A DNA stretch of 41,417 nt, from positions 1 through 41,417 of IMG/VR virus record IMGVR_UViG_3300045988_097494. One strand, 5' to 3'. The notes under the pieces were generated by a model, which was not told where the DNA came from, made no database searches, and saw nothing but the letters and a program-made list of their open reading frames with translations. Made by a program: the position numbers and the translations under genes. The first letter of the stretch is position 1. Each line of letters opens with the position of its first letter. Shown here piece after piece: positions 1,040 to 41,368 of the stretch. This stretch comes from a virus.

Positions 1040-1310
1040 GGTTGAGGTGGGGCGGGGGGATATTCCCTGGGGTTGCTGTGGTTTGTTTTTTGGTCGCTGG
1101 TTATTTCGTCGTCGTGATTTTTGGTGTTTGTGCTGGTCAGGTGTGTTGGTGTTTGTTCTCGCTGGCTGTGTTTGTGTGCTTGTGTGTTGGTGTGTTAGTT
1201 GTGTGCGCGCGTGTGTGTTGGTGGTTGCGTGCGTACGTGTGTTCGATGATGTAGGTCACGTGCTGTGTTGTGTGTCTTGGGTTGACGTGAGCTCGTGTGT
1301 GTGGCGTACA
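1040..1310 (+). other. Extreme GT-rich (A/C-poor) non-coding tract
   Basis: By hand count, 1081-1140 is about 83% G+T and 1141-1200 about 90% G+T. It starts with the G-runs ggtggggcgggggg and contains the alternating Pu-Py runs gtgtgcgcgcgtgtgtgt and gcgtgcgtacgtgtgt. Confidence 0.8.
1239..1260 (+). repeat. 22-bp box GTGTTCGATGATGTAGGTCACG, copy 1 (copy 2 at 3107..3128)
   Basis: Exact 22-nt identity between the two sites. Each lies about 21 nt upstream of a TTGAC -35 element and is flanked by a short inverted repeat (cgtgtg..cacgtg here, cgcgtg..cacgcg in copy 2). Confidence 0.85.
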
Positions 1311-1312
1311 GT
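1282..1312 (+). promoter_or_regulatory. Putative promoter of the 1367 cassette
   Basis: TTGACG (1282-1287), 19-nt spacer, TACAGT (1307-1312), then tacggCCATCAGCA and the RBS GAAAGGAtcacgacgATG. Confidence 0.5.
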
Positions 1313-1366
1313 TACGGCCATCAGCAACACAGCCCCAGCGACGGGGTGAACGAAAGGATCACGACG

Positions 1367-2269
1367 ATGAGCAAGACGATGCGGCGCATGGCACTGGCCC
1401 TGGTGTGTGGGGTGCTGGCCCTCATGGGGTGGGTGCCCGCCCACGCCAGCGAGAACACCCCCACCGGTGGGTGGGTGCTCGCCAGCACGGGGGCCCCCGT
1501 TGATGTGTCAGAGACCCCTGCCTGTGAGGATGAGGGGCAGGAGTATGGGCCGTGCCTGTGGGATGCCAGCGCCCACGGTAACGGCGAGGGCGACTCATTC
1601 ATGGTCGAGGAGGACGGCAGCGTCTCCTACCTGAGGAAGGCGGACGGCACCGCCACCGCTACCCCTGCGAAGAAAAGCAAGAGGGCCAAGACGAAGGAAA
1701 ACTCCGACGACGCTACCGTGGCGCCCACGCCTGCGGGGCCTCCCGAGGCGCGCGCGTACCCGGGTTGGGTGTGGACCGGTCGCACCGCCCCTGTCACCAC
1801 TCCCGGCCTGCCCGCGTGCGTTGACGTGCACGGTCAGGAGACCTGTGTCCGGCAGGGGTACACGCTCGTAGTGGACCAGTCGGCATGTACGCAAACCATC
1901 ATCACCGACCAGGGCAACCAGTACGTGCCCGGCCCCGCTGTCGCGCAAGCTCTCTCTGACTCGTGCCAGGCACACAAGCCAGACACTCGAGACCACAAAG
2001 ACGACGCCGGATGGGGCGGAGCGCGACCTAGTTCTACGGGAGTTGTGCACTCGGCTACGCCGAGCGCGGCTGTGAGTAGCGTTGTGGATAAGCCTTCCTC
2101 TCCCAGTCGGGACAGGGTTGTGGGTCCTGTGGATTCTGGCGCCAAAGGCAACTATGACGTTGAGGTTGTGGCGGTGTTTGGCGCGCTGGTCCTGTTGGGG
2201 CTTGCTGTGGCGGTGTGGGTTGAGCGTCGTGCGACTGAGCGTCGCTTGAGTCGCCTTGGCTCAAGGTGA
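1367..2269 (+). CDS. Secreted protein with C-terminal membrane anchor and an internal Cys-containing duplication
   Basis: Signal peptide MSKTMRRMALALVCGVLALMGWVPAHA|SE and C-terminal TM segment VVAVFGALVLLGLAVAVWV followed by RRATERR. Internal repeat GGWVLASTGAPVDVSETPACEDEGQEYGPC versus PGWVWTGRTAPVTTPGLPACVDVHGQETC. The longer ORF from 1295 lacks an RBS. Confidence 0.7.
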   Translation: MSKTMRRMALALVCGVLALMGWVPAHASENTPTGGWVLASTGAPVDVSETPACEDEGQEYGPCLWDASAHGNGEGDSFMVEEDGSVSYLRKADGTATATPAKKSKRAKTKENSDDATVAPTPAGPPEARAYPGWVWTGRTAPVTTPGLPACVDVHGQETCVRQGYTLVVDQSACTQTIITDQGNQYVPGPAVAQALSDSCQAHKPDTRDHKDDAGWGGARPSSTGVVHSATPSAAVSSVVDKPSSPSRDRVVGPVDSGAKGNYDVEVVAVFGALVLLGLAVAVWVERRATERRLSRLGSR

Positions 2270-4351: not shown

Positions 4352-4825
4352 ATGAGCACTACGTCTGAGCGCATGGCCGAAGCATTCAAACGGGCCACGG
4401 GGGAGGAGGTTGACCCACCGAAACGGCTGGCCATCATGCGAGGGAAGTACACCTTAGATGCCACGCCGGGTTACGGGGGAGGCCGCTACGTAGTCACCGC
4501 CACGGCGTGGGCGGCGGATTCACTGAACGTTGAGTTCAGGGCCAAGACTCAAGGTTCGTCCACCAGCGTCACCAGGATGGAAGCCATGCTGCGAGAGGCT
4601 AGGGCGCGCGCTCGGACGCTAGTTCTACTCTCTGACGTGCTCGGCGCGAATGGCTGGCACGTGAGTCAGCTGAACTTGGTTGGCGAGATTGGCTTGCAAG
4701 CCAGGAAAGGCGACTCCTACGTTCAGGTGTTCGGCGATGGTTCGTGTCATGGTTATGACGACACGGCCGTCCGGTTCGCTGCTGACGTATTCGCGGTAGC
4801 GCTGGAGCACGTTCGGCGCCGCTAG
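4352..4825 (+). CDS. Hypothetical protein
   Basis: 157-aa ORF with RBS ggaaggagccaggaaATG. Confidence 0.7.
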   Translation: MSTTSERMAEAFKRATGEEVDPPKRLAIMRGKYTLDATPGYGGGRYVVTATAWAADSLNVEFRAKTQGSSTSVTRMEAMLREARARARTLVLLSDVLGANGWHVSQLNLVGEIGLQARKGDSYVQVFGDGSCHGYDDTAVRFAADVFAVALEHVRRR

Positions 4826-4833
4826 GCCGGATG

Positions 4834-4861
4834 GTCAGCCCATACGATCATGTGGGCTGGC
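4834..4861 (+). terminator. Hairpin terminator after the 4352 gene
   Basis: 9-bp stem gtcagccca / tgggctggc (one G-T pair) with a 10-nt loop. It is preceded by CCGGATGGTC, the same 10-mer found at 3954-3963. Confidence 0.45.
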
Positions 4862-5008
4862 CACCTCGCCTAGGAGGATTGCGCAGCTGGAAACACGGGA
4901 AGCCGCTAAGTAGGGCTTGCGCACGTTGGTTGAGAACTACATAGAGGAAACGCCATAGGTGGCAGGCACCGCACGCACGGCCGTGGCCCCGCGTAGTCGA
5001 TACAGTCT

Positions 5009-5100
5009 GCCCACCTATGAGTCACCTAGACCGCCCCCACCGTTTCTATGTGTGAGGTTTGCTGTGATCCGATTATGGTCTAGGTGGCCCATAGGTGCCC
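5009..5100. promoter_or_regulatory. Pair of inverted 24-bp TAGGTG-containing repeats flanking a promoter-like region
   Basis: The reverse complement of 5009-5032 (ggtctaggtgactcataggtgggc) matches 5077-5100 (ggtctaggtggcccataggtgccc) at about 20 of 24 positions, with 44 bp between them. TATGGT at 5074-5079. A further cataggtggc lies at 4954-4963. Confidence 0.5.
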
Positions 5101-5131
5101 CGCATCGTGCGGAACCTAGGAAGGAATAGAC

Positions 5132-5770
5132 ATGACCACATATAGGGTGATCACACAGGATGAATGGGATTACCTCACCACCAAGGGCGACATCAGTTTC
5201 TCGGATACCGTTATCGTCGCTTGCGATATTGACGCAACCGCTGGCTACGAGGGTGATCTAAACATCGTCGTCGAAGATGGGGCGCACCTTATTGCGCCGA
5301 GCTCAAGCTCAGGTTGGCATACCCTTGAGTCCAGCTCTCTGAGCTTACTGTGGGACGGCGACGACAATGTTGTGGTACAGGCAGGCAAGGTTAGTGGTGG
5401 TGATGTGACGGTGACCCTGGTCGGCTACCCATCAAACGTGGAGCCCTACATATCCGTAGCTAGTTCCGGCATGGTGTACTTCAAGCGCGTCGATAGTCTC
5501 GACAGCGTGAGCTCCGCCGATAGTCCTGAGCACTACACGTGGATAGGTGGCGCACTCATGCGGCTGGGCGCCCCGGCGCGCTCGGCCGACCTACAGTCCT
5601 GGGACCTACTGGATGCCTTATTCCCCGATAACCCGCATCTCTGGAACGCGGGGAAGTACCTCATCCGGTACGGCCGCAAGGGCGACTCGAGCAAGCGCGT
5701 AGAGGACCTACGCAAGGCCGTCGCCTACCTCGAGCGGGCCATCAAGGCGGAGGAACGCCGTGTCAGCTGA
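5132..5770 (+). CDS. DUF3310-like phage protein
   Basis: The C-terminal HLWNAGKYLIRYGRKGDSSKRVEDLRKAVAYLERAI resembles the DUF3310 signature. The N-terminal ~130 aa are unknown. RBS aggaaggaatagacATG. Confidence 0.5.
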   Translation: MTTYRVITQDEWDYLTTKGDISFSDTVIVACDIDATAGYEGDLNIVVEDGAHLIAPSSSSGWHTLESSSLSLLWDGDDNVVVQAGKVSGGDVTVTLVGYPSNVEPYISVASSGMVYFKRVDSLDSVSSADSPEHYTWIGGALMRLGAPARSADLQSWDLLDALFPDNPHLWNAGKYLIRYGRKGDSSKRVEDLRKAVAYLERAIKAEERRVS

Positions 5771-5984
5771 CGCGCCACTCGAGCATCGCCTCATCACGCA
5801 TGCAGACATGCGCCGCATGGTCGACGGGGCCACTGTATATGACGACCTCAATCAGGCGTGGGTCAAACATGGCTCATGGTGGCACCTAGACGACGGCGAT
5901 ACTCGCCTACTCGGCACAGAACTCAAGCGCCTATCGGCGTGGCTGTACACGCTCGAGCCATTCAATCCCGTCTGGCTCATCTAG
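5760..5984 (+). CDS. Hypothetical protein
   Basis: 74 aa with a GTG start overlapping the upstream gene end. Confidence 0.5.
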   Translation: MSADAPLEHRLITHADMRRMVDGATVYDDLNQAWVKHGSWWHLDDGDTRLLGTELKRLSAWLYTLEPFNPVWLI

Positions 5985-6017
5985 AAGCACCGCCACACAC
6001 CAGGAGGAACACACCCC

Positions 6018-6482
6018 ATGAGTACTCGCGTTGACGTCACGGACGTAGCAAATCAGTTGGACCGCATGTGGCCGCATGCGCGCATGCATGCAGCCCCCAC
6101 GCCCATGGGGCACGCCGTGGTGCTTGGCGCTACCGCGGCGGAGCTCACCCCAGATTGGTGGACGGTGCGCAAGCCGGACCAGGCGGATCGGTTCTGGGGG
6201 TACGTCGAATGCGATGAGGCCGTCATCGCAGATGCGCTTGCGGAGGCGAACGCGCACAACTTCCACGACTCGGTTCGCGGGCGCGTCACAGCATTCGACC
6301 AGCGACTCAAGGTGCGTCGCATCGGCGATGTGTACAGCATCACTACAGCGGAGTCGGAGACCATCATCATCACCCCTGTGGGTGGCCGGATTGCGGTCAC
6401 GGCTGGGGGTGTCACGCATGAGGTTGCGACCGTGGGGAACGCGATCATGGCGGTTGGTTCCCTGGTGGCGTCGACCAAGTAG
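6018..6482 (+). CDS. Hypothetical protein
   Basis: 154-aa ORF with RBS caggaggaacacaccccATG. Confidence 0.65.
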   Translation: MSTRVDVTDVANQLDRMWPHARMHAAPTPMGHAVVLGATAAELTPDWWTVRKPDQADRFWGYVECDEAVIADALAEANAHNFHDSVRGRVTAFDQRLKVRRIGDVYSITTAESETIIITPVGGRIAVTAGGVTHEVATVGNAIMAVGSLVASTK

Positions 6483-6490
6483 TTCCTAGA

Positions 6491-6561
6491 TAGGGGGTTC
6501 CCAACGGAATAGGGGGTTCCCAACGGAATAGGGGGTTCCCAACGGAATAGGGGGTTCCCAA
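6491..6561 (+). repeat. Tandem 19-bp repeats (3.7 copies of TAGGGGGTTCCCAACGGAA) just upstream of erf
   Basis: Exact head-to-tail units at 6491-6509, 6510-6528 and 6529-6547, plus a partial unit at 6548-6561. Confidence 0.95.
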
Positions 6562-6574
6562 GAAAGGGAGACAG

Positions 6575-7258
6575 ATGGCAGAACAGCTCACAGTACACCA
6601 GGCACTCAGCAAGGTCATGGAAGCCGTACAAGCAGTAAGGAAGGACAGCAAGAATCAGGCGCAGCGATTCAACTTTCGCGGCATCGACGCGGTAATGAAC
6701 GCAGTAGGCCCCGCACTCCGCAAGCACGGCGTGATCATCCTCCCCGAAGAGGTTGATGTACACCGCAGCAACGGGACCACGGCCAACGGGAAGCAGACAG
6801 CCGAGGTGGTCGTCAAGGTCACCTACAGGGTCTACGGGCCTGCCGGTGACAGCATTCACGGGGAGGTTGCTGCCGAGGCGATGGACTTCGGCGACAAGGC
6901 AATCGCTAAGGCAATGAGCGTCGCCTACCGGACGTTCCTGCTGCAGGCGCTCACCATCCCCACTGATGATCCCGACCCCGATATTGAGTCCTTCGAGAGG
7001 GGGGTTCCCAACGGAATAGGGGGTTCCCAACGGAACAGGGCACCCCAGCAGGGCACCCCCCTCCCAACAGAACAGGGGGTTCCCAAGAGAACAGCCGCAG
7101 AACAGTGCGGAACCATCCTCGACGGATTCTGCGCCACCCACCAGCTGGACGGCAACAAGGTTCGTGAGGAGTACTTCGCAGCCGGCGGGAAGGCCAACCC
7201 TGACATGCTCCGAGCATGGTTGGTACAGAACTACGGAGCAGGAAAGGTACAGGCATGA
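6575..7258 (+). CDS. erf: ERF-family single-strand annealing recombinase
   Basis: The motifs QRFNFRGIDAVMNAVGPALRKHGV and FGDKAIAKAMSVAYRTFLLQAL are typical of ERF superfamily proteins. Confidence 0.8.
   Translation: MAEQLTVHQALSKVMEAVQAVRKDSKNQAQRFNFRGIDAVMNAVGPALRKHGVIILPEEVDVHRSNGTTANGKQTAEVVVKVTYRVYGPAGDSIHGEVAAEAMDFGDKAIAKAMSVAYRTFLLQALTIPTDDPDPDIESFERGVPNGIGGSQRNRAPQQGTPLPTEQGVPKRTAAEQCGTILDGFCATHQLDGNKVREEYFAAGGKANPDMLRAWLVQNYGAGKVQA
6997..7091 (+). repeat. Second array of the 19-bp GGGGGTTCCCAA repeats, inside the erf 3' region
   Basis: ggggggttcccaacggaa (6999-7016), tagggggttcccaacggaa (7017-7035), two degenerate units, then cagggggttcccaagagaa (7073-7091). The units are translated in different frames (GVPNGI versus GGSQRN). 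Confidence 0.9.
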
Positions 7259-7707
7259 GCAAGGAAGACGCACTCCGCAGGGCGACCATCGCGGCACACA
7301 TCACTAAGGTGGCCTCCCAGGAGAAGAAGAAGGCCCTCAAAGAGCTCAAGGAGTACATGGCCCCCGGGGACACGTCCAAGCCCTCCATCGATGGCAGGCA
7401 GGTCGGTACGGTCAGCGTGAGCTCTCCTCAGCCCCGCTACCAGGTGGTGGACGAGAAGGCGCTCGTGGCCTGGCTCGAGTGGAACAAGCCTGACGCCGTG
7501 CACAAGGTGCCTGCGCCATGGTTCGTTGCCGCTAACGCACTGGATGGGTTCATCAAGCAGACCGGGGAGATTCCCGACGGCGTTGAGGTCGTTCAGGGTG
7601 ACCCGCGCATCTCGGTGCGCATCTCGGCACCTCAGGAGGATGCAATCAGGGACCTGATCGCTAGCGGGGATATCCGCCTAATTGAGATGGAGGAGGCTCA
7701 GGAGTGA
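7255..7707 (+). CDS. Possible Gam-like host-nuclease inhibitor
   Basis: 150 aa, ATGA overlap with erf. An N-terminal Lys/Glu-rich helix is followed by GTVSVSSPQPRYQVVDEKALVAWLE..GVEVVQGDPRISVR, a layout resembling Mu Gam-like proteins. Confidence 0.4.
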   Translation: MSKEDALRRATIAAHITKVASQEKKKALKELKEYMAPGDTSKPSIDGRQVGTVSVSSPQPRYQVVDEKALVAWLEWNKPDAVHKVPAPWFVAANALDGFIKQTGEIPDGVEVVQGDPRISVRISAPQEDAIRDLIASGDIRLIEMEEAQE

Positions 7708-7889
7708 CACCGCGTGAGAGGAACGCTCAACTGAGGTTGGCAGAGATTCGAGAGCGAGCAGAGAACTGGGCCCGGAACGGGAGGTATGAAGCCGAAGGCA
7801 AGCCCCCATTCCCAGCGGCGGCCGATGTCCTGAATCTTCTGGCACGTATCGACAGGTTGGAGCGCCGCCTGAACGAGGCAGAGCTGTGA
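7704..7889 (+). CDS. Hypothetical protein
   Basis: 61 aa with a GTGA overlap to the upstream stop. Confidence 0.5.
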   Translation: MTPRERNAQLRLAEIRERAENWARNGRYEAEGKPPFPAAADVLNLLARIDRLERRLNEAEL

Positions 7890-8257
7890 CCCGCCGAAAG
7901 GGGGTCTCCCAGGAAACAAGGGAGCTCGTGTACGAGAGGGACCAGTACCGGTGTGCCCGCTGCGGTAGGCACGCCGGGAATGGCCCCATGAGCATCCAGC
8001 ATAGGAGAGCTCGAGGCATGGGGGGCAGCAAGGCCCCTAATACGAACAAACCCAGTAACCTCATCCTCCTCTGCGGGGATGGGGTGCGGGGCTGCCACGG
8101 CTACATCGAGCAGAACAGGACGGAAGCCAGGCGGGGCGGATACAACGTTCCCCAGTTCGTAGCCACCCCAGAGACAATCCCAGTCAGATACTGGGATGGT
8201 TACCTCTACAGGATAGACGACGAAGGAGGAAAGGAATGCTTAGTGTCGAAGAAGTGA
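7886..8257 (+). CDS. HNH endonuclease
   Basis: RDQYRCARCGR...IQHRRARGMGG...NLILLCGDGVRGCHGYI forms an HNH/Zn motif. GTGA overlap to the upstream stop. Confidence 0.75.
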   Translation: MTRRKGVSQETRELVYERDQYRCARCGRHAGNGPMSIQHRRARGMGGSKAPNTNKPSNLILLCGDGVRGCHGYIEQNRTEARRGGYNVPQFVATPETIPVRYWDGYLYRIDDEGGKECLVSKK

Positions 8258-8457
8258 CATACACATATGCAACCATCACCTGTGACCATCCAGAATGCAC
8301 CAACAGCATCAGCTTTCGGCCGGGGCCTGAAGACCTGGAACGAGAACTGGCTGATCTTAGAGCCCTACGATACCTGGCCATTCGCAGTGGATGGAAGTTC
8401 ATTAACGACGGCACGACAACAGAGTGCAATTACCACACCAGAAAGGACACAGAATGA
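8236..8457 (+). CDS. Small zinc-ribbon protein (paralog family member 1)
   Basis: Strong RBS gaaggaggaaaggaATG. Pattern TCDHPEC...SGWKF...ECNYH is shared with the genes at 11577 and 11777. Confidence 0.6.
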   Translation: MLSVEEVTYTYATITCDHPECTNSISFRPGPEDLERELADLRALRYLAIRSGWKFINDGTTTECNYHTRKDTE

Positions 8458-9549: not shown

Positions 9550-9892
9550 AAGCGCCAAGGCCGCTGGGGCGCGGTTTGAGAGAGTTGTCGCCGACTACCT
9601 CGCAGAGGAGCTGGACGATGACAGGATCGACCGCGCCCCCAAGGCCGGGGCCAAAGACAAGGGCGACATCGCTAATGTCCGCATGGGTGACCATAAGGTC
9701 GTCATCGAGTGCAAGGATGTCGCCCGCATGGACCTGCCGAAGTGGGCCCGAGAAGCCCAGGTGGAGGCGGAGAACGCCGGCGCACTCATAGGTGTGATTG
9801 TCCACAAACGGCACGGGGTTGCCAAGCCTGACCAGCAATGGGCTACAACGACACTCGGAGACCTCGCCAGACTCCTGAAAGGACACCAATGA
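9533..9892 (+). CDS. Hjc-like PD-(D/E)xK Holliday junction resolvase/nuclease
   Basis: AGARFERVVADYL...KDKGDIANV...VVIECKD matches the Hjc-type E...D...E-x-K arrangement. A GTG at 9533 follows GGAG. An alternative ATG at 9506 has no RBS. Confidence 0.55.
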   Translation: MARTRRSAKAAGARFERVVADYLAEELDDDRIDRAPKAGAKDKGDIANVRMGDHKVVIECKDVARMDLPKWAREAQVEAENAGALIGVIVHKRHGVAKPDQQWATTTLGDLARLLKGHQ

Positions 9893-10077
9893 AAACCATC
9901 CCCGGTTACCTCACCAAGAACGAGGCGGCCAGCATGCTCGGCATCACCCGCCGAACACGCGACCGACATATCCAGAAGCACAAGGTTCCCACCTTCCGCT
10001 TCCTCGGAGACCCCACCATCCACGTCCTCGAAGAGGACATGAAGAAACTCTTCTCCCCCATCCGAAAGGACAACTGA
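9889..10077 (+). CDS. Helix-turn-helix DNA-binding protein (Xis/MerR-like)
   Basis: 62 aa with an ATGA overlap. LTKNEAASMLGITRRTRDRHIQKHKVP is HTH-like. Confidence 0.55.
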   Translation: MKTIPGYLTKNEAASMLGITRRTRDRHIQKHKVPTFRFLGDPTIHVLEEDMKKLFSPIRKDN

Positions 10078-39542: not shown

Positions 39543-40118
39543 TCCGACCCATCCGGCGGGCCTCTATCAGCACGACCATCCTACACGCGACGACGAACCG
39601 AGCGCAACCCTCCGGAATCTCCGGACAGTTCGACACCCCAGAAGCACCCGAAGCCGTGTAAGCCAATCTGAGAGCCTTTCAGCACCCCACCCAGGTCAGC
39701 ACACACACTCACCCCCGTTAGGCCGTCCACGAGCCTCCTGACGGCCTCCCTGGGGTGCGCGCCGCCCGCCGCCGAGGCCCAACCCTCTCTGGAGAGCGTC
39801 AACCAACTAGAGACGATCAACCCAACGTAACCACAACCCAACCCACTGCTTGGCGCTAGAGCAAGGAAGTCTTCAAGGTCAGGTTCCGTCTCGGTACAGC
39901 AAGGAAGGGCAAGGACGACGAAGGTGCCTCAGAGCGCTCCAACTCGACCAGGCGACCAAGGATCAACTAGAGCCAGGTACGTGACTAGCCAACGAACCAT
40001 CTCCTCGTCCTTGCTCTCGTGGACCAACTGGACCGAAGGCCAAGGCGACGACCAAGGACCAACGGTCCGACGGTCGGAGCGAAGCGGAGATCATGGCTTC
40101 GCGCGCACGCGCGACTAT
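39543..40118. other. Gene-free divergent control region, C+A-rich on the plus strand, with dispersed short repeats and small hairpins
   Basis: No RBS-backed ORF. About 70-73% C+A by hand count at 39661-39720 and 39781-39840. Repeated 8-12-mers: caactagag (39804, 39964), gcaaggaag (39861, 39899), cgaccaagga (39953, 40049) and ggaccaac (40021, 40056). Hairpins tccgga-atc-tccgga (39610-39624) and ggccgtc..gacggcc (39721-39746). Confidence 0.7.
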
Positions 40119-40144
40119 AGGTTCTCTTGGAAGGTTCTCCTTAA
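40119..40144 (+). repeat. 13-bp direct repeat aggttctcttgga / aggttctccttaa
   Basis: Adjacent imperfect copies immediately upstream of the 22-bp tandem repeats. Confidence 0.6.
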
Positions 40145-40150
40145 GGGGTT

Positions 40151-40218
40151 AGGTGGCACTGTGTTGCACAGGTGAGTGCACTGTGTTGCACAGGTGAGTG
40201 CACTGTGTTGCACAGGTG
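40151..40218 (+). repeat. Three tandem 22-bp repeats GCACTGTGTTGCACAGGTGAGT (iteron/operator-like)
   Basis: Units at 40156-40177 and 40178-40199 are exact, and 40200-40218 is a 19-nt copy. Each unit contains the dyads CTGTG-ttg-CACAG and GTGCA..TGCAC. Confidence 0.9.
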
Positions 40219-40236
40219 CCGCGACGACAGAGAAGA

Positions 40237-40262
40237 GGGCGCACCCCGAACAGGATGCGCCC
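40237..40262 (+). other. Hairpin gggcgca / tgcgccc (7-bp stem)
   Basis: Inverted repeat between the tandem repeats and the second hairpin. Confidence 0.4.
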
Positions 40263-40283
40263 ACAAGGTCACAGCAAGTAGAC

Positions 40284-40318
40284 GGAGGGCCCCAGCATGC
40301 GTTAGACTGGGGCCCTCC
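40284..40318 (+). terminator. Terminator-like or 5'-UTR hairpin 25 nt upstream of the replication-gene start
   Basis: 11-bp stem ggagggcccca / tggggccctcc with a 13-nt loop, followed by TT. Confidence 0.45.
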
Positions 40319-40342
40319 TTGAGAACACACAGAAAGGATATC

Positions 40343-41368
40343 ATGCGTTACTACGAATCGGAAGCCGCCGCCCTACGGGGCCTGAAGCCCAGCTCCAAAG
40401 TCCTCGCACTGGTGCTCGCGGCCCGCATGAACGACACTCACGACAATTGGCCGGGCCGCCCCGTCTGCTTCCCCAGCCTCGACGCCCTCGCGGAAGACAC
40501 TGACCTCGGGAAGCGCATGGTCCGCTACGCCATCGCAGAACTCATAGAAGCCAAAGTCATCCGCGTCTACAAGGACCGCGAGCCTGGCGCCCGCTGGGAC
40601 CACAACGTCTACGAGTGGACCGCCCCAATCTCCCCCAACTACCGCCCAGACTGGATGAAGCGCCCCGACAAGCAGAAGAGCGCCATCGGCGCTCGACTCA
40701 CCAACGAAGGGTGGGAGTACTGCGAGGAGAATCACGTTGGGCCGCACACTGCAGCCGCCGACCACCCTGAATTCGTCCTCCCTGCTGAGCAGCCAGTCCT
40801 TGTTGACGACCTGGGCGCCACCGACGTCGCCGAAATGTCAGCCGCTGAGACCCCTGTCGAAGAGAAGGAAGCTGGCACGCTACCAATCGACGTTACACCC
40901 CCGAAGAAGCCCGCCCGCGAGGCTACCGGGAAGCCCGCAGACGGCTTTGACGACTGGTGGAAGCAGTACCCCAAGAAGGTCGGCAAGATCGACGCCCAGA
41001 AGGCATACAGGGCCGCCATCAAACAGGGCGCCAAACCTCAGGACCTCCTCGACGGCCTCCGGCGCCACAACGCCAACTGGAAAGCCGCGAACACCGAACG
41101 CCAGTACATCCCCAACCCCGCCTCGTGGCTACGTAAGGGCAGGTGGGAGGACGAGCTCGAAGCACCCGACTCCGGCCAGGCCGCGCCAGCCATCAACCCG
41201 GCCACCGGCAAGGAGGCAACTAAGGAAGACTTCTGGTACGCCTGCATCGACCACGGCATCGACCCCAACGGCATCATCAACTTCTGGAAGCCATCCATGG
41301 ACCTCCCCGGCGACCCGGGATGGCCTGAGGTGGAGGCATACCTGTACCGCCAGGTCGGGCGTGCTTGA
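40343..41368 (+). CDS. Putative replication initiator/organiser with N-terminal winged-helix HTH
   Basis: 341 aa from the ATG at 40343 (RBS agaaaggatatcATG). N-terminal SKVLALVLAARMND...FPSLDALAEDTDLGKRMVRYAIAELIEAKVI is wHTH-like. The C-terminal FDDWWKQYPKKVGKIDAQKAYRAAIK...IPNPASWLRKGRWEDE motif is seen in phage replication/DnaD-like proteins. Confidence 0.5.
   Translation: MRYYESEAAALRGLKPSSKVLALVLAARMNDTHDNWPGRPVCFPSLDALAEDTDLGKRMVRYAIAELIEAKVIRVYKDREPGARWDHNVYEWTAPISPNYRPDWMKRPDKQKSAIGARLTNEGWEYCEENHVGPHTAAADHPEFVLPAEQPVLVDDLGATDVAEMSAAETPVEEKEAGTLPIDVTPPKKPAREATGKPADGFDDWWKQYPKKVGKIDAQKAYRAAIKQGAKPQDLLDGLRRHNANWKAANTERQYIPNPASWLRKGRWEDELEAPDSGQAAPAINPATGKEATKEDFWYACIDHGIDPNGIINFWKPSMDLPGDPGWPEVEAYLYRQVGRA

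What the first reader, a model, noticed from the sequence alone, without database searches (positions are those of the whole stretch)
6491..7091. Two arrays of a 19-bp GGGGGTTCCCAACGGAA repeat bracketing the Erf core, with the internal array read in different frames
Nearly four perfect head-to-tail copies of TAGGGGGTTCCCAACGGAA lie immediately upstream of the erf start (6491-6561). About five more copies, two exact and the rest degenerate, lie inside the erf 3' region (6997-7091). The period is 19 bp, which is not a multiple of 3, so consecutive units are translated in different frames (GVPNGI, GGSQRN, QGVPKR). The sequence is therefore conserved at the DNA level and not for the protein. Each unit contains the small dyad TTCC-caac-GGAA. 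Two phased clusters about 440 bp apart resemble iterons of a replication origin, or a looping operator or centromere-like site embedded in a tolerant linker of a recombinase gene. No protein that binds them is evident.
Basis: seen in the sequence. Interest (0 to 1): 0.7.

Follow-up and report, generated by a model that had tools for sequence, protein, structure and literature searches.

The report
Conserved 19-base repeats flanking phage recombinase
A 19-base motif repeated head-to-tail just before and inside a phage recombination gene is real and is conserved as nucleotide sequence, not as protein, across a clade of human oral phages; it behaves as an unstable gene and domain junction and is probably not a replication origin.

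Summary
Array B (6490-6561, 3.8 perfect units) abuts the erf ribosome-binding site. Array C (6997-7090, five units) encodes the disordered linker between the Erf core and a small C-terminal domain. A further single unit lies at the 5' end of the neighbouring HNH gene (7897-7915).

About 190 related contigs from human oral samples keep the arrays at the same boundaries, always on the sense strand. The conserved core is AYAGGGG-N3-CCCA followed by a purine tract. Inside erf the usual codon-position pattern of diversity disappears: the G-run and CCCA are invariant even at third codon positions. Selection therefore acts on the nucleotides.

The arrays are the best-conserved DNA shared with a sister lineage whose N-domain is barely recognisable. 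Copy number of array B ranges from 1 to 8 and changes faster than point substitutions. One genome has lost the Erf core through recombination between arrays B and C. In the sister lineage, five versus three units puts the C-terminal domain in or out of frame.

A RepC-like initiator with its own 22-bp repeats lies elsewhere, so an origin role is unlikely. My best guess is a Shine-Dalgarno-like, start- and boundary-associated cis element acting on expression. No binding factor has been identified.

The parts
6490..6561 (+). Array B: 3.8 perfect head-to-tail units ATAGGGGGTTCCCAACGGA in the 92-nt gap between the upstream ORF (stop at 6480-6482) and erf. The TAG triplets inside the array (6491, 6510, 6529, 6548) close all three reading frames; two further TAGs lie just upstream (6480, the upstream ORF's stop, and 6487).
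   Evidence: TAG positions and frames; present in all relatives with 1-8 units
6560..6577 (+). Shine-Dalgarno sequence AAGAAAGGGAG, spacer and ATG of erf. The Shine-Dalgarno sequence occupies the place of the purine-rich half of the last unit.
   Evidence: In an alignment of 94 distinct leaders anchored on the start codon, AATAGGGG-NNN-CCCA-RGAAAGGA is near-invariant and the central NNN is free.
6575..7258 (+). erf gene (227 aa). The RAD52-like annealing core is aa 1-125, the disordered linker aa 128-171, and the three-helix C-terminal domain aa 174-221.
   Evidence: Pfam ERF and PHROG 155; AlphaFold2 model and Foldseek search
6997..7090 (+). Array C: five units of 19, 19, 18, 19 and 19 nt (94 nt in all) encoding aa 141-172 of the linker. 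Units 1, 2 and 5 are intact; units 3 and 4 are degenerate.
   Evidence: nucleotide-level constraint; linker pLDDT 26-35; in frame in 128 of 129 loci of this lineage
7094..7255 (+). C-terminal domain coding segment. It is the part of the protein that unit-number changes in array C would put out of frame.
   Evidence: sister lineage; the domain is rare, with only 7 representative clusters in 1.8 billion proteins
7897..7915 (+). Array D: a single unit AAAGGGGGTCTCCCAGGAA inside the 5' coding end of the HNH endonuclease gene (7886..8257). Most relatives carry 2-3 units here.
   Evidence: Tandem Repeats Finder detects it as a 19-nt x2.5 array in Caudovirus D_HF2_7; HNH assignment
5760..6482 (+). 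Upstream ORFs p74 (5760..5984) and p154 (6018..6482). p154 is absent from many relatives; in those, p74 ends at the TAG of the first unit of array B, so the left edge of array B is a synteny breakpoint.

Best explanation
What it is. The two arrays are copies of a lineage-specific 19-nt cis element with the form AYAGGGG - three free bases - CCCA - five mostly purine bases. The element marks the 5' boundary of each module in the recombination-gene cluster of a clade of human oral phages. These phages are predicted to infect Actinomycetota.

Features of a unit. Each unit carries a strong Shine-Dalgarno-like G-run. The element is always on the sense strand. In the leader, the last unit is fused in a fixed register to the true Shine-Dalgarno sequence.

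Proposed mechanism (inferred). I think the element acts on expression, at the level of the mRNA.
- Upstream of erf it forms a tandem pseudo-ribosome-binding site. When the junctions read ATA it also provides stop codons in all three frames. Ribosomes arriving from any upstream module would terminate there and be delivered to the erf start.
- Inside erf and the HNH gene the same units sit where the protein is disordered and tolerant of any sequence.

Consequences of the repeat structure. The units are head-to-tail, and 19 leaves remainder 1 on division by 3. The element is therefore also a hypermutable junction. Unit number drifts quickly. Arrays recombine with one another. A change in unit number in the inner array decides whether the C-terminal domain is fused in frame.

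Shown versus inferred.
- Shown: the anatomy, the conservation, the nucleotide-level constraint, the positions, the orientation and the instability.
- Inferred: action on RNA or translation, and any involvement of the ribosome or another factor.
For: (1) Nucleotide-level selection. The codon-position signature disappears in array C, while the G-run and CCCA stay invariant at third positions. The same positions are invariant, and the same central N3 is free, in 94 distinct non-coding leaders.

(2) Depth of conservation. Between the window and the sister lineage (L085) the arrays are 82-90% identical, while flanking genes are at most 72% identical or undetectable. The two N-domains share only topology and a weak hhalign extension. 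N3 differs between lineages (GTT, TAT, CCT, GCT, TCT, TGC), so the arrays are not simply exchanged.

(3) Array C is not merely overwritten by array B. Sharing of units within a genome is only slightly above permuted genomes (exact sharing 2.9% against 1.0%).

(4) Position and strand. In about 190 loci the arrays sit only at four boundaries, all in sense orientation: before p130, before the annealing-protein gene, in the linker, and at the HNH 5' end.

(5) Relation to the ribosome-binding site.
- The last unit is fused to the Shine-Dalgarno sequence for two unrelated genes.
- In some genomes a unit's G-run is itself the Shine-Dalgarno sequence, GTAGGAGG lying 5 nt before GTG.
- Predicted pairing of each unit with the 16S 3' end is -10 to -15 kcal/mol. 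The true erf Shine-Dalgarno sequence gives -9.4, and the first percentile of the early operon is -10.7.

(6) Instability.
- Array B has 1-8 units, with a mode of 4.
- Sixteen of 66 pairs with 0-4 differences in 405 nt of erf differ in copy number.
- L074 lacks the Erf core through recombination between arrays B and C.
- In the sister lineage 12 loci have five units, with the C-terminal domain in frame. Eight loci have three units, which puts an intact C-terminal domain in the +1 frame. The three-unit state occurs in at least three diverged sublineages. Counted as proteins, 57 of 148 member sequences are out of frame.

(7) The linker is predicted to be disordered, with pLDDT 26-35.
Against: - A role in initiation explains array B but not why the G-run and CCCA are kept inside ORFs. 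A double-stranded-DNA-binding protein would explain all sites equally well.
- The role of the invariant CCCA is unexplained.
- RNA folds are no more stable than shuffled sequence (z = -0.07 and -1.17), and there is no Rfam hit.
- Any G-run pairs well with the C/U-rich anti-Shine-Dalgarno sequence, and the rRNA tail used was taken from memory.
- Genomes with ACA junctions (L016) lack the three-frame stops, and the T/C at 7017 is polymorphic at about 50%. Those features are therefore not essential.
- Copy numbers come from short-read assemblies, which can collapse tandem repeats.
- The on/off polymorphism is seen in the sister lineage. In the window's own lineage only 1 of 129 loci is out of frame, and that locus is a 1-kb contig at 2x coverage.
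- No trans factor has been identified.
Confidence: 0.4

Rival explanations
1. The arrays are binding sites on double-stranded DNA for a sequence-specific protein. Candidates are an operator, a looping complex or another nucleoprotein complex bridging arrays B, C and D. The GGG-N5-CCC pseudo-dyad would be the recognition core, and the 19-bp head-to-tail arrangement would allow cooperative filament-like binding, as seen with Xis/Cox or ribbon-helix-helix proteins.
For: - The same position-specific constraint holds in coding and non-coding arrays.
- The half-sites are invariant and the centre is variable, which is typical of protein sites.
- There are several clusters 220-700 bp apart.
- A small HTH_17 (Xis-like) protein is encoded nearby in both lineages, at window 9838..10077 (weak, E = 4e-4) and in L103.
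Against: - No promoter-like site lies near any array, and the arrays sit inside an operon rather than at its control region.
- The strict sense orientation and the fixed register with the Shine-Dalgarno sequence are not required of an operator.
- Copy number from 1 to 8 is tolerated.
- No candidate binder co-varies with N3; this was not testable with partial contigs.
Confidence: 0.22
2. The arrays are recombination junctions. Short portable homologies, or targets of the adjacent HNH nuclease or of the annealing protein, at module boundaries would promote exchange, loss and gain of gene or domain cassettes between co-infecting phages. Their conservation would come from that role and from frequent inter-phage exchange.
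For: - Every array coincides with a synteny or homology breakpoint between lineages: p154 present or absent; the p130 cassette flanked by arrays A and B; Erf core versus a barely recognisable N-domain between arrays B and C; p150/p61 present or absent before array D.
- L074 shows a deletion formed between arrays B and C.
- The arrays are in direct orientation throughout.
- The phage encodes an annealing protein, an HNH nuclease, a RusA-like resolvase (PHROG; Pfam weak PDDEXK_15) and an exonuclease.
Against: - Linkage disequilibrium within the Erf clade is low everywhere and does not drop further across array C at matched distances.
- Selection for evolvability is second-order. It would not readily keep GGGG and CCCA invariant while N3 diverges between lineages.
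- Not all breakpoints carry arrays (p74|p154; C-terminal domain|p150).
Confidence: 0.18
3. The selected function is a frame switch. Each unit is a +1 frameshift cassette consisting of a Shine-Dalgarno-like GGGG, a 3-nt spacer and CCC-A. Together with unit-number changes (phase variation), this would set the ratio of core-only to core-plus-C-terminal-domain isoforms of the annealing protein.
For: - The unit has the architecture of the prfB site, AGGGGG followed three nucleotides later by the slippery codon (PMC12421855).
- CCC is in frame 0 in units 1 and 5 of the window.
- In three-unit alleles of the sister lineage the C-terminal domain is intact in exactly the +1 frame. The array is open in that frame from unit 1 onwards (reading of the sequence).
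- Out-of-frame alleles are common: 57 of 148 member sequences.
Against: - No in-frame stop or evidently slow codon follows CCC.
- Actinomycetota lack prfB frameshifting, and M. smegmatis shifts at only about 6.6% on that motif (PMC12421855).
- In the window, a +1 shift meets the TAG at 7017, but that T is polymorphic (pi = 0.50), so no conserved truncated product is designed in.
- The non-coding arrays A and B cannot be explained this way.
- In-frame and out-of-frame alleles have identical C-terminal domains, so the data have no power to detect selection.
Confidence: 0.12
4. This is the first reader's proposal: the arrays are iterons of a replication origin or a centromere-like partition site embedded around erf.
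For: Tandem direct repeats of iteron-like length occur in two or three clusters, conserved as DNA, within the replication and recombination region.
Against: - Copy number is 1-8, and a single unit occurs in L003 and L023.
- The units are head-to-tail at 19 bp with no helical phasing.
- There is no AT-rich unwinding region.
- The initiator (HTH_36 + RP-C, with a DnaD-like C-terminus) is at 40343..41368. Perfect 22-bp x3 repeats lie 125-190 nt upstream of it, in a roughly 700-nt non-coding region containing the local GC minimum.
- No par genes were found among the early proteins scanned.
- More distant erf genes in actinobacterial genomes carry no such arrays.
Confidence: 0.05
5. The arrays are a neutral, self-propagating minisatellite. 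They would persist through slippage and gene conversion in places that tolerate any sequence (a leader and a disordered linker), with no sequence-specific function.
For: Copy number is hypervariable. The arrays lie only in tolerant positions. There is some concerted evolution between arrays B and C, for example window ATA/ATA against L016 ACA/ACA.
Against: Position-specific invariance of GGGG and CCCA persists across lineages whose N3 and flanking genes have diverged strongly. Exchange between arrays B and C is weak. Retention at four syntenic boundaries across deep divergence is not expected of drift.
Confidence: 0.08

Closest known systems
Start-Associated Sequences (SAS) of Cluster K mycobacteriophages (Pope et al. 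2011, PMC3203893; function still untested in 2025, PMC12699233)
   Same: Both occur in actinobacteriophages. Both are short asymmetric motifs with outer GGG...CCC symmetry and an ATAGG(A/G)G core containing a Shine-Dalgarno-like element. Both are found in one orientation only, next to the starts of non-structural genes of different families. In both, a TAG within the motif sometimes serves as the upstream gene's stop. Both are conserved when the flanking genes differ, and in both the binding factor is unknown.
   Different: The SAS consensus GGGATAGGAGCCC is absent here. The units here are 19 nt, tandemly repeated 1-16 times, and lie about 25 nt upstream of the start, followed by a separate Shine-Dalgarno sequence. 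They also occur in frame inside ORFs, in a linker and an N-terminal tail. They are restricted to 3-4 boundaries of one gene cluster instead of 11-19 genes.
Lambda-type origin iterons inside the initiator gene O, in its interdomain linker (textbook knowledge)
   Same: Both are direct repeats of about 19 bp embedded in the coding sequence of a flexible linker of a DNA-metabolism gene, so that the DNA signal constrains the coding sequence.
   Different: Lambda iterons are bound by the product of the gene that contains them, are fixed in number, and lie next to an AT-rich region. Here the host gene is an annealing protein, copy number is free, there is no AT-rich region, and the initiator is encoded elsewhere with its own repeats.
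prfB programmed +1 frameshift site (AGGGGG, 3 nt, CUU UGA; PMC12421855)
   Same: Both have a Shine-Dalgarno-like G-run placed 2-3 nt before a shift-prone codon. Here that codon is the CCC-A quadruplet, which is known from my own knowledge to be prone to +1 slips by tRNA-Pro.
   Different: There is no in-frame stop or known slow codon. The motif here is repeated, and most copies are non-coding or out of register. The presumed hosts, Actinomycetota, shift poorly on the prfB motif.
Bacterial contingency loci and phase-variable tandem repeats (review PMC11868660; long-unit repeats in M. tuberculosis, PMC12817950)
   Same: The repeat unit is not a multiple of 3 and lies inside an ORF and in a leader. 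Copy number differs between near-identical genomes. Frameshifted alleles keep an intact downstream reading frame.
   Different: The locus is in a phage recombinase gene. The unit sequence itself is under position-specific selection. Reversibility and switching rate have not been measured.
PeSL mobile regulatory cassettes of T4-type phages, and 'boundary sequences' at lambdoid gene junctions (Arbiol et al. 2010 and Clark et al. 2001, cited from memory and not read here)
   Same: Both are conserved short sequences flanking ORFs in a plastic early region, with cassette presence or absence and deletions whose ends fall in the repeats.
   Different: PeSL elements consist of an early promoter plus a terminator stem-loop. 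No promoter-like site or stable stem-loop was detected here.

Membership tests
Iteron-type replication origin | Several direct repeats of about 17-22 bp | tested here: met
   19-bp units, 3.8 + 5 + 1 copies
Iteron-type replication origin | Repeats lie in or next to the gene of the initiator that binds them | tested here: not met
   The initiator (HTH_36 + RP-C, DnaD-like) is at 40343..41368, about 7.7 kb away on a circular map. It has its own 22-bp x3 repeats at 40156-40218.
Iteron-type replication origin | Adjacent AT-rich unwinding element | tested here: not met
   The lowest-GC 40-nt window in 6000-7600 is 0.47, against a genome first percentile of 0.45. The control region near the initiator reaches 0.38.
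Iteron-type replication origin | Conserved number and arrangement of repeats among relatives | tested here: not met
   The upstream array has 1-8 units and differs between genomes with identical erf cores.
Iteron-type replication origin | Origin activity, or initiator binding | not testable with these tools
   Requires plasmid replication assays, footprinting or marker-frequency sequencing.
Start-Associated Sequences (Cluster K mycobacteriophages) | Match to GGGATAGGAGCCC with at most 2 mismatches | tested here: not met
   10 hits at up to 3 mismatches against 18 expected, none at the arrays.
Start-Associated Sequences (Cluster K mycobacteriophages) | Motif lies 3-7 nt upstream of the start codon, in place of the ribosome-binding site | tested here: not met
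   In the window the last G-run is about 25 nt before the ATG, and a separate Shine-Dalgarno sequence follows. The criterion is met only in some relatives' array A, where GTAGGAGG lies 5 nt before GTG.
Start-Associated Sequences (Cluster K mycobacteriophages) | Single orientation, in front of non-structural genes of different families | tested here: met
   All arrays are on the sense strand. They lie before p130 and the annealing-protein gene, and at the HNH 5' end.
Contingency locus (phase-variable tandem repeat) | Tandem repeat with a unit not divisible by 3 inside an ORF or leader | tested here: met
   19-nt units in the erf linker and leader.
Contingency locus (phase-variable tandem repeat) | Unit-number polymorphism among near-identical genomes, with frameshifted alleles that are otherwise intact | tested here: inconclusive
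   The leader array qualifies. Frameshifted alleles account for 8 of 20 loci in the sister lineage but only 1 of 129, from a low-coverage contig, in the window's own lineage. An assembly-collapse artefact is possible.
Contingency locus (phase-variable tandem repeat) | Reversible high-frequency switching within a clonal population | not testable with these tools
   Requires deep long-read sequencing of a plaque-purified lysate.
prfB-type programmed +1 frameshift site | Internal Shine-Dalgarno-like element about 3 nt upstream of the shift codon | tested here: met
   AGGGG(G) followed 2-3 nt later by CCC. Predicted anti-Shine-Dalgarno pairing is -10 to -15 kcal/mol. Motif definition from PMC12421855.
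prfB-type programmed +1 frameshift site | Slippery codon followed by an in-frame stop or slow codon | tested here: not met
   CCC is followed by AAC or AAG, with no in-frame stop.
PeSL-like mobile regulatory cassette | The repeat contains an early promoter and a terminator stem-loop | tested here: not met
   No promoter-like site in 4800-8300 and no plus-strand terminator-like site at the arrays. Folds are no better than shuffled sequence.
PeSL-like mobile regulatory cassette | Cassette gain or loss with end points in the repeats | tested here: met
   The p130 cassette lies between arrays A and B, and the Erf core is deleted between arrays B and C in L074.
parC-type centromere | Adjacent partition genes (ParA or ParM plus ParR or ParB) | tested here: not met
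   No par family was found among about 30 early proteins scanned with PHROGs and Pfam. The scan was not exhaustive.

The most novel reading that the evidence does not exclude
The 19-nt unit is a dual genetic and translational frame switch in a phage recombinase. Each unit combines a Shine-Dalgarno-like G-run, a 3-nt spacer and a CCC-A slip site, and the period leaves remainder 1 on division by 3. Two things would therefore set the ratio of a core-only annealing protein to a core-plus-C-terminal-domain fusion: how many units a genome carries, and how often ribosomes slip +1 within them. The same unit in the leader would terminate upstream translation in any frame and re-deliver ribosomes to erf. 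This would be a phase-variable, frameshift-prone module junction of a kind not described for phages.
Probability: 0.13. Interest if true: 0.85.

Novelty: new variant of a known kind. Interest (0 to 1): 0.62.

Why it matters
These phages are abundant in human oral metagenomes: the Erf search returned 2,265 homologues, and about 190 contigs carry the motif.

The element shows a nucleotide signal overriding protein coding in all three frames of a recombinase linker. It is conserved more deeply than the recombinase core it flanks.

If it acts on translation, it gives a second, independent and more tractable case of the still unexplained start-associated sequences of actinobacteriophages. It is more tractable because unit number varies naturally.

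If it is a frame switch or a recombination junction, it shows how a phage can vary the architecture of its own recombination protein (core alone, or core plus C-terminal domain) and swap modules.

For annotation, it warns that truncated annealing-protein genes in this group are unit-number variants rather than dead genes, and that short-read assemblies may miscount the units.

Tried and rejected
- TTCC-N4-GGAA dyad as the functional core: rejected, because it is not conserved in relatives.
- Stable RNA structure: the leader and linker fold no better than shuffled sequence (z = -0.07 and -1.17), and there is no Rfam family.
- Promoter in or near the arrays: none found.
- Alternative-frame product in the window: the +1 frame stops at 7017 and the other frame at 7165, with no fusion to the downstream gene.
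- A general feature of erf genes: rejected. Twelve erf homologues in actinobacterial and other genomes (31-59% identity) have no comparable arrays.
- Recombination hot spot detected through linkage disequilibrium: inconclusive. Disequilibrium is low across the whole gene, with no clear extra drop across array C.
- Array C as a passive copy of array B through gene conversion: only weak same-genome sharing.
- My first unit logo was circular, because the detection regex fixed GGG and CCCA. I replaced it with codon-position diversity and a leader alignment anchored on the start codon.
- Function of the C-terminal domain: no Pfam hit even at E = 10. Foldseek hits for the whole model come from the RAD52-like core. 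The few large proteins that match the domain are heterogeneous repeat proteins. There is therefore no evidence that the C-terminal domain binds the arrays.
- N-domain of the sister lineage: no Pfam or BLAST similarity to Erf. AlphaFold2 gives an alpha-beta-beta-beta-alpha fold with weak dsRBD-like and RAD52 hits. hhalign extends weakly into it, so it is probably a very divergent Erf core rather than an unrelated replacement. An earlier hhalign run was invalid because one alignment contained sequences from both lineages.
- Host identity: no close prophage among GTDB representative genomes. The only statement available is a predicted Actinomycetota host for the GenBank relative (PMC10537320).
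Full report
**1. Observation**

The window is a complete phage genome of about 41 kb. Early genes lie on the + strand (1 to about 13,400, and from 40,343). Structural genes lie on the - strand.

Tandem Repeats Finder reports 6490-6561 (period 19, 3.8 copies, 100% matches) and 7000-7094 (period 19, 5.1 copies, 67% matches). The 17-mer GGGGGTTCCCAACGGAA with up to 3 mismatches occurs six times, only in these arrays. The chance expectation is 0.25.

erf is 6575..7258 (Pfam ERF aa 8-136, PHROG 155). The upstream array (B) fills the 92-nt gap after the preceding ORF, and its last unit merges into the Shine-Dalgarno sequence AAGAAAGGGAG.

The inner array (C, 6997-7090) consists of units of 19, 19, 18, 19 and 19 nt and encodes aa 141-172. 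An AlphaFold2 model gives a RAD52-like core (aa 1-125), a disordered linker (aa 128-171, pLDDT 26-35) and a three-helix C-terminal domain (aa 174-221).

A further single unit, AAAGGGGGTCTCCCAGGAA (7897-7915), lies in the 5' coding end of the HNH gene 7886..8257.

**2. Relatives**

- The only GenBank relative is Caudovirus D_HF2_7 from human saliva (83% identity). Its host is predicted to belong to Actinomycetota (PMC10537320).
- Scans for the motif gave 31 and 86 viral contigs and 94 metagenome contigs. These sets overlap and were not fully deduplicated.
- The Erf protein has 2,265 homologues at E < 1e-5, and the best 120 are all 85-100% identical.

All relatives keep the arrays. The architectures are as follows.
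- Type I, the window's lineage: p74-(p154)-[B]-Erf core-[C]-C-terminal domain-p150-[D]-HNH.
- Type II: p75b-[A]-p130-[B]-N-domain-[C]-C-terminal domain-[D]-HNH.
- A 74%-identical Erf lineage (L057, L067, L087) also has arrays B and C.

Twelve more distant erf genes in actinobacterial and other genomes (31-59% identity) have no such arrays. The element is therefore clade-specific and not a property of erf in general.

**3. The unit**

Across lineages the unit is A[T/C]AGGGG - N3 - CCCA - five mostly purine bases. N3 is free (GTT, TAT, CCT, GCT, TCT, TGC, CGC, CAT). The TTCC/GGAA dyad of the window is not conserved. All arrays lie on the sense strand.

In 94 distinct leaders aligned on the start codon, which is a non-circular test, AATAGGGG, CCCA and GAAAGGA are near-invariant and N3 is not.

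**4. Selection on nucleotides**

Diversity at codon positions 1/2/3 across 39 distinct erf alleles:

| Region | Position 1 | Position 2 | Position 3 |
|---|---|---|---|
| Core | .057 | .051 | .311 |
| C-terminal domain | .060 | .033 | .272 |
| Array C, units 1-2 | .098 | .197 | .162 |
| Array C, unit 5 | .025 | .024 | .079 |

Third positions that fall in the G-run or in CCCA have diversity of 0-0.1. The variable sites are N3, the purine half and the T/C of the junction, whatever their codon position.

Array C is not simply overwritten by array B. Exact sharing of units within a genome is 2.9%, against 1.0% in permuted genomes. That is significant but small.

Between the window and the Type II phage L085, the arrays are 82-90% identical, while neighbouring genes are at most 72% identical or undetectable.

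The Type II N-domain has no Pfam or BLAST similarity to Erf. It shares an alpha-beta-beta-beta-alpha topology and a weak hhalign extension. The C-terminal domains are about 40% identical. The arrays are thus the most conserved part of the locus.

**5. Instability**

- Array B has 1-8 units in Type I. Among distinct sequences the counts are 3 with one unit, 13 with two, 21 with three, 35 with four, 6 with five, 3 with six and 1 with eight.
- Sixteen of 66 genome pairs with 0-4 differences in 405 nt of erf differ in unit number.
- Array A in Type II reaches about 8 units.
- L074, a 32-kb contig, has lost the Erf core exactly between arrays B and C.

In Type II, array C has one of two forms.
- Five units, U1 followed by (U2U3) twice, with the C-terminal domain in frame: 12 loci.
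- Three units, with the C-terminal domain intact but in the +1 frame: 8 loci, in at least three diverged sublineages.

The corresponding truncated proteins (P0134, P0135, P0137, P0138 and the frameshifted P0139) account for 57 of 148 member sequences.

In Type I, 128 of 129 loci are in frame. The length variants differ by multiples of 3, through an 18-nt unit. The one exception is a 1-kb contig at 2x coverage.

Caveat: short-read assemblies can collapse tandem repeats. Several of the three-unit alleles come from k = 141 MEGAHIT contigs, where a 76-nt repeat cannot collapse.

**6. Relation to translation**

- The last unit is fused in a fixed register to the Shine-Dalgarno sequence of two unrelated genes.
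- In some genomes a unit's G-run has become the Shine-Dalgarno sequence itself.
- Predicted pairing of each unit with the actinobacterial 16S 3' end is -10 to -15 kcal/mol. The erf Shine-Dalgarno sequence gives -9.4, and the first percentile of the early operon is -10.7. The rRNA tail was taken from memory, and G-runs score well trivially.
- With ATA junctions the array carries TAG in all three frames. In relatives, p74 ends at the TAG of the first unit.
- The unit has the layout of the prfB +1 frameshift site, AGGGGG followed three nucleotides later by the shift codon (PMC12421855). There is no in-frame stop, however, and Actinomycetota shift poorly on that motif.

**7. Tests against other readings**

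- No promoter-like site.
- No Rfam hit.
- No fold better than shuffled sequence.
- No AT-rich tract near the arrays.
- The SAS consensus is absent.
- The initiator (40343..41368; HTH_36 + RP-C; PHROG replication initiation and DnaD-like) sits behind a non-coding region of about 700 nt. That region contains a perfect 22-bp x2.9 repeat at 40156-40218 and the local GC minimum. This is a more conventional place for the origin.
- Linkage disequilibrium does not single out array C as a hot spot.
- The C-terminal domain is a rare domain with no recognisable DNA-binding family.

**8. Interpretation**

The following are shown by the data: the anatomy, the clade-wide conservation, the nucleotide-level constraint in three reading frames, the sense orientation, the placement at gene and domain boundaries, and the instability.

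The mechanism is inferred. My preferred reading (confidence 0.4) is a start- and boundary-associated cis element acting on expression at the mRNA level. Its repeat structure would also make it a hypermutable junction.

The rivals and their confidences:
- A double-stranded-DNA protein-binding operator or looping site fits the coding-region constraint at least as well (0.22).
- A recombination-junction role fits the breakpoints (0.18).
- A dedicated frame switch is the most novel possibility (0.12).
- An origin or centromere is unlikely (0.05).
- A neutral minisatellite is hard to reconcile with the position-specific conservation (0.08).

**9. Novelty**

The closest described phenomenon is the start-associated sequences of Cluster K mycobacteriophages, whose function is still unknown (PMC3203893, PMC12699233). 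The element here fails their defining consensus and position. It differs in being tandem, in lying inside ORFs, and in shifting the reading frame. I classify it as a new variant of a known kind.

Noticed in passing
window 40156-40218 (context 39660-40343): A perfect 22-bp x2.9 tandem repeat, GCACTGTGTTGCACAGGTGAGT, with an internal CTGTG/CACAG dyad. It lies in the non-coding control region of about 700 nt, 125-190 nt upstream of the RepC/O-like, DnaD-like initiator gene (40343..41368). It is followed by a GC-rich hairpin and the local GC minimum. It is a likely origin iteron set or early operator. It is not present as a tandem repeat in the relative D_HF2_7.
   Followed up: partly
L085 1899-2537 and proteins P0121-P0139: The sister-lineage annealing-protein-like gene carries a second, in-frame repeat (blocks of TQTNEGQ...VKTTAGQ). 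Copy-number variants give proteins of 145, 212 and 233 aa. The repeat is predicted to be disordered (aa 24-52).
   Followed up: partly
L074 (reverse strand) about 4850-5115: A natural variant in which the whole Erf core is missing. The p74 stop (the TAG of the first unit) is followed by a fused B/C array and then the C-terminal domain, with no start codon.
   Followed up: yes
window 1121-1196: GT-rich tandem repeats (25 bp x2.3 and 8 bp x3.8) lie upstream of ORF 1295..2269 in the early region.
   Followed up: no
window 5081-5101: A short repeat, TAGGTGCCCCA x1.9, lies just upstream of the ribosome-binding site of gene 5132..5770. It loosely resembles the unit (ATAGG...CCCC) and may be a degenerate relative.
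   Followed up: no
window 7255-7707 and 7704-7889: The 150-aa protein downstream of erf (PHROG 5168, with weak Mu Gam-like similarity) and a 61-aa ORF are absent from the sister lineage. There the HNH gene directly follows the annealing-protein gene, so this is another indel bounded by an array on one side only.
   Followed up: partly
window 7094-7255 (Erf C-terminal domain): The C-terminal domain is very rare, matching 7 representative clusters among 1.8 billion proteins. Apart from Erf-like proteins, it matches short repeated stretches in a few large, heterogeneous proteins. Its function is unknown.
   Followed up: partly
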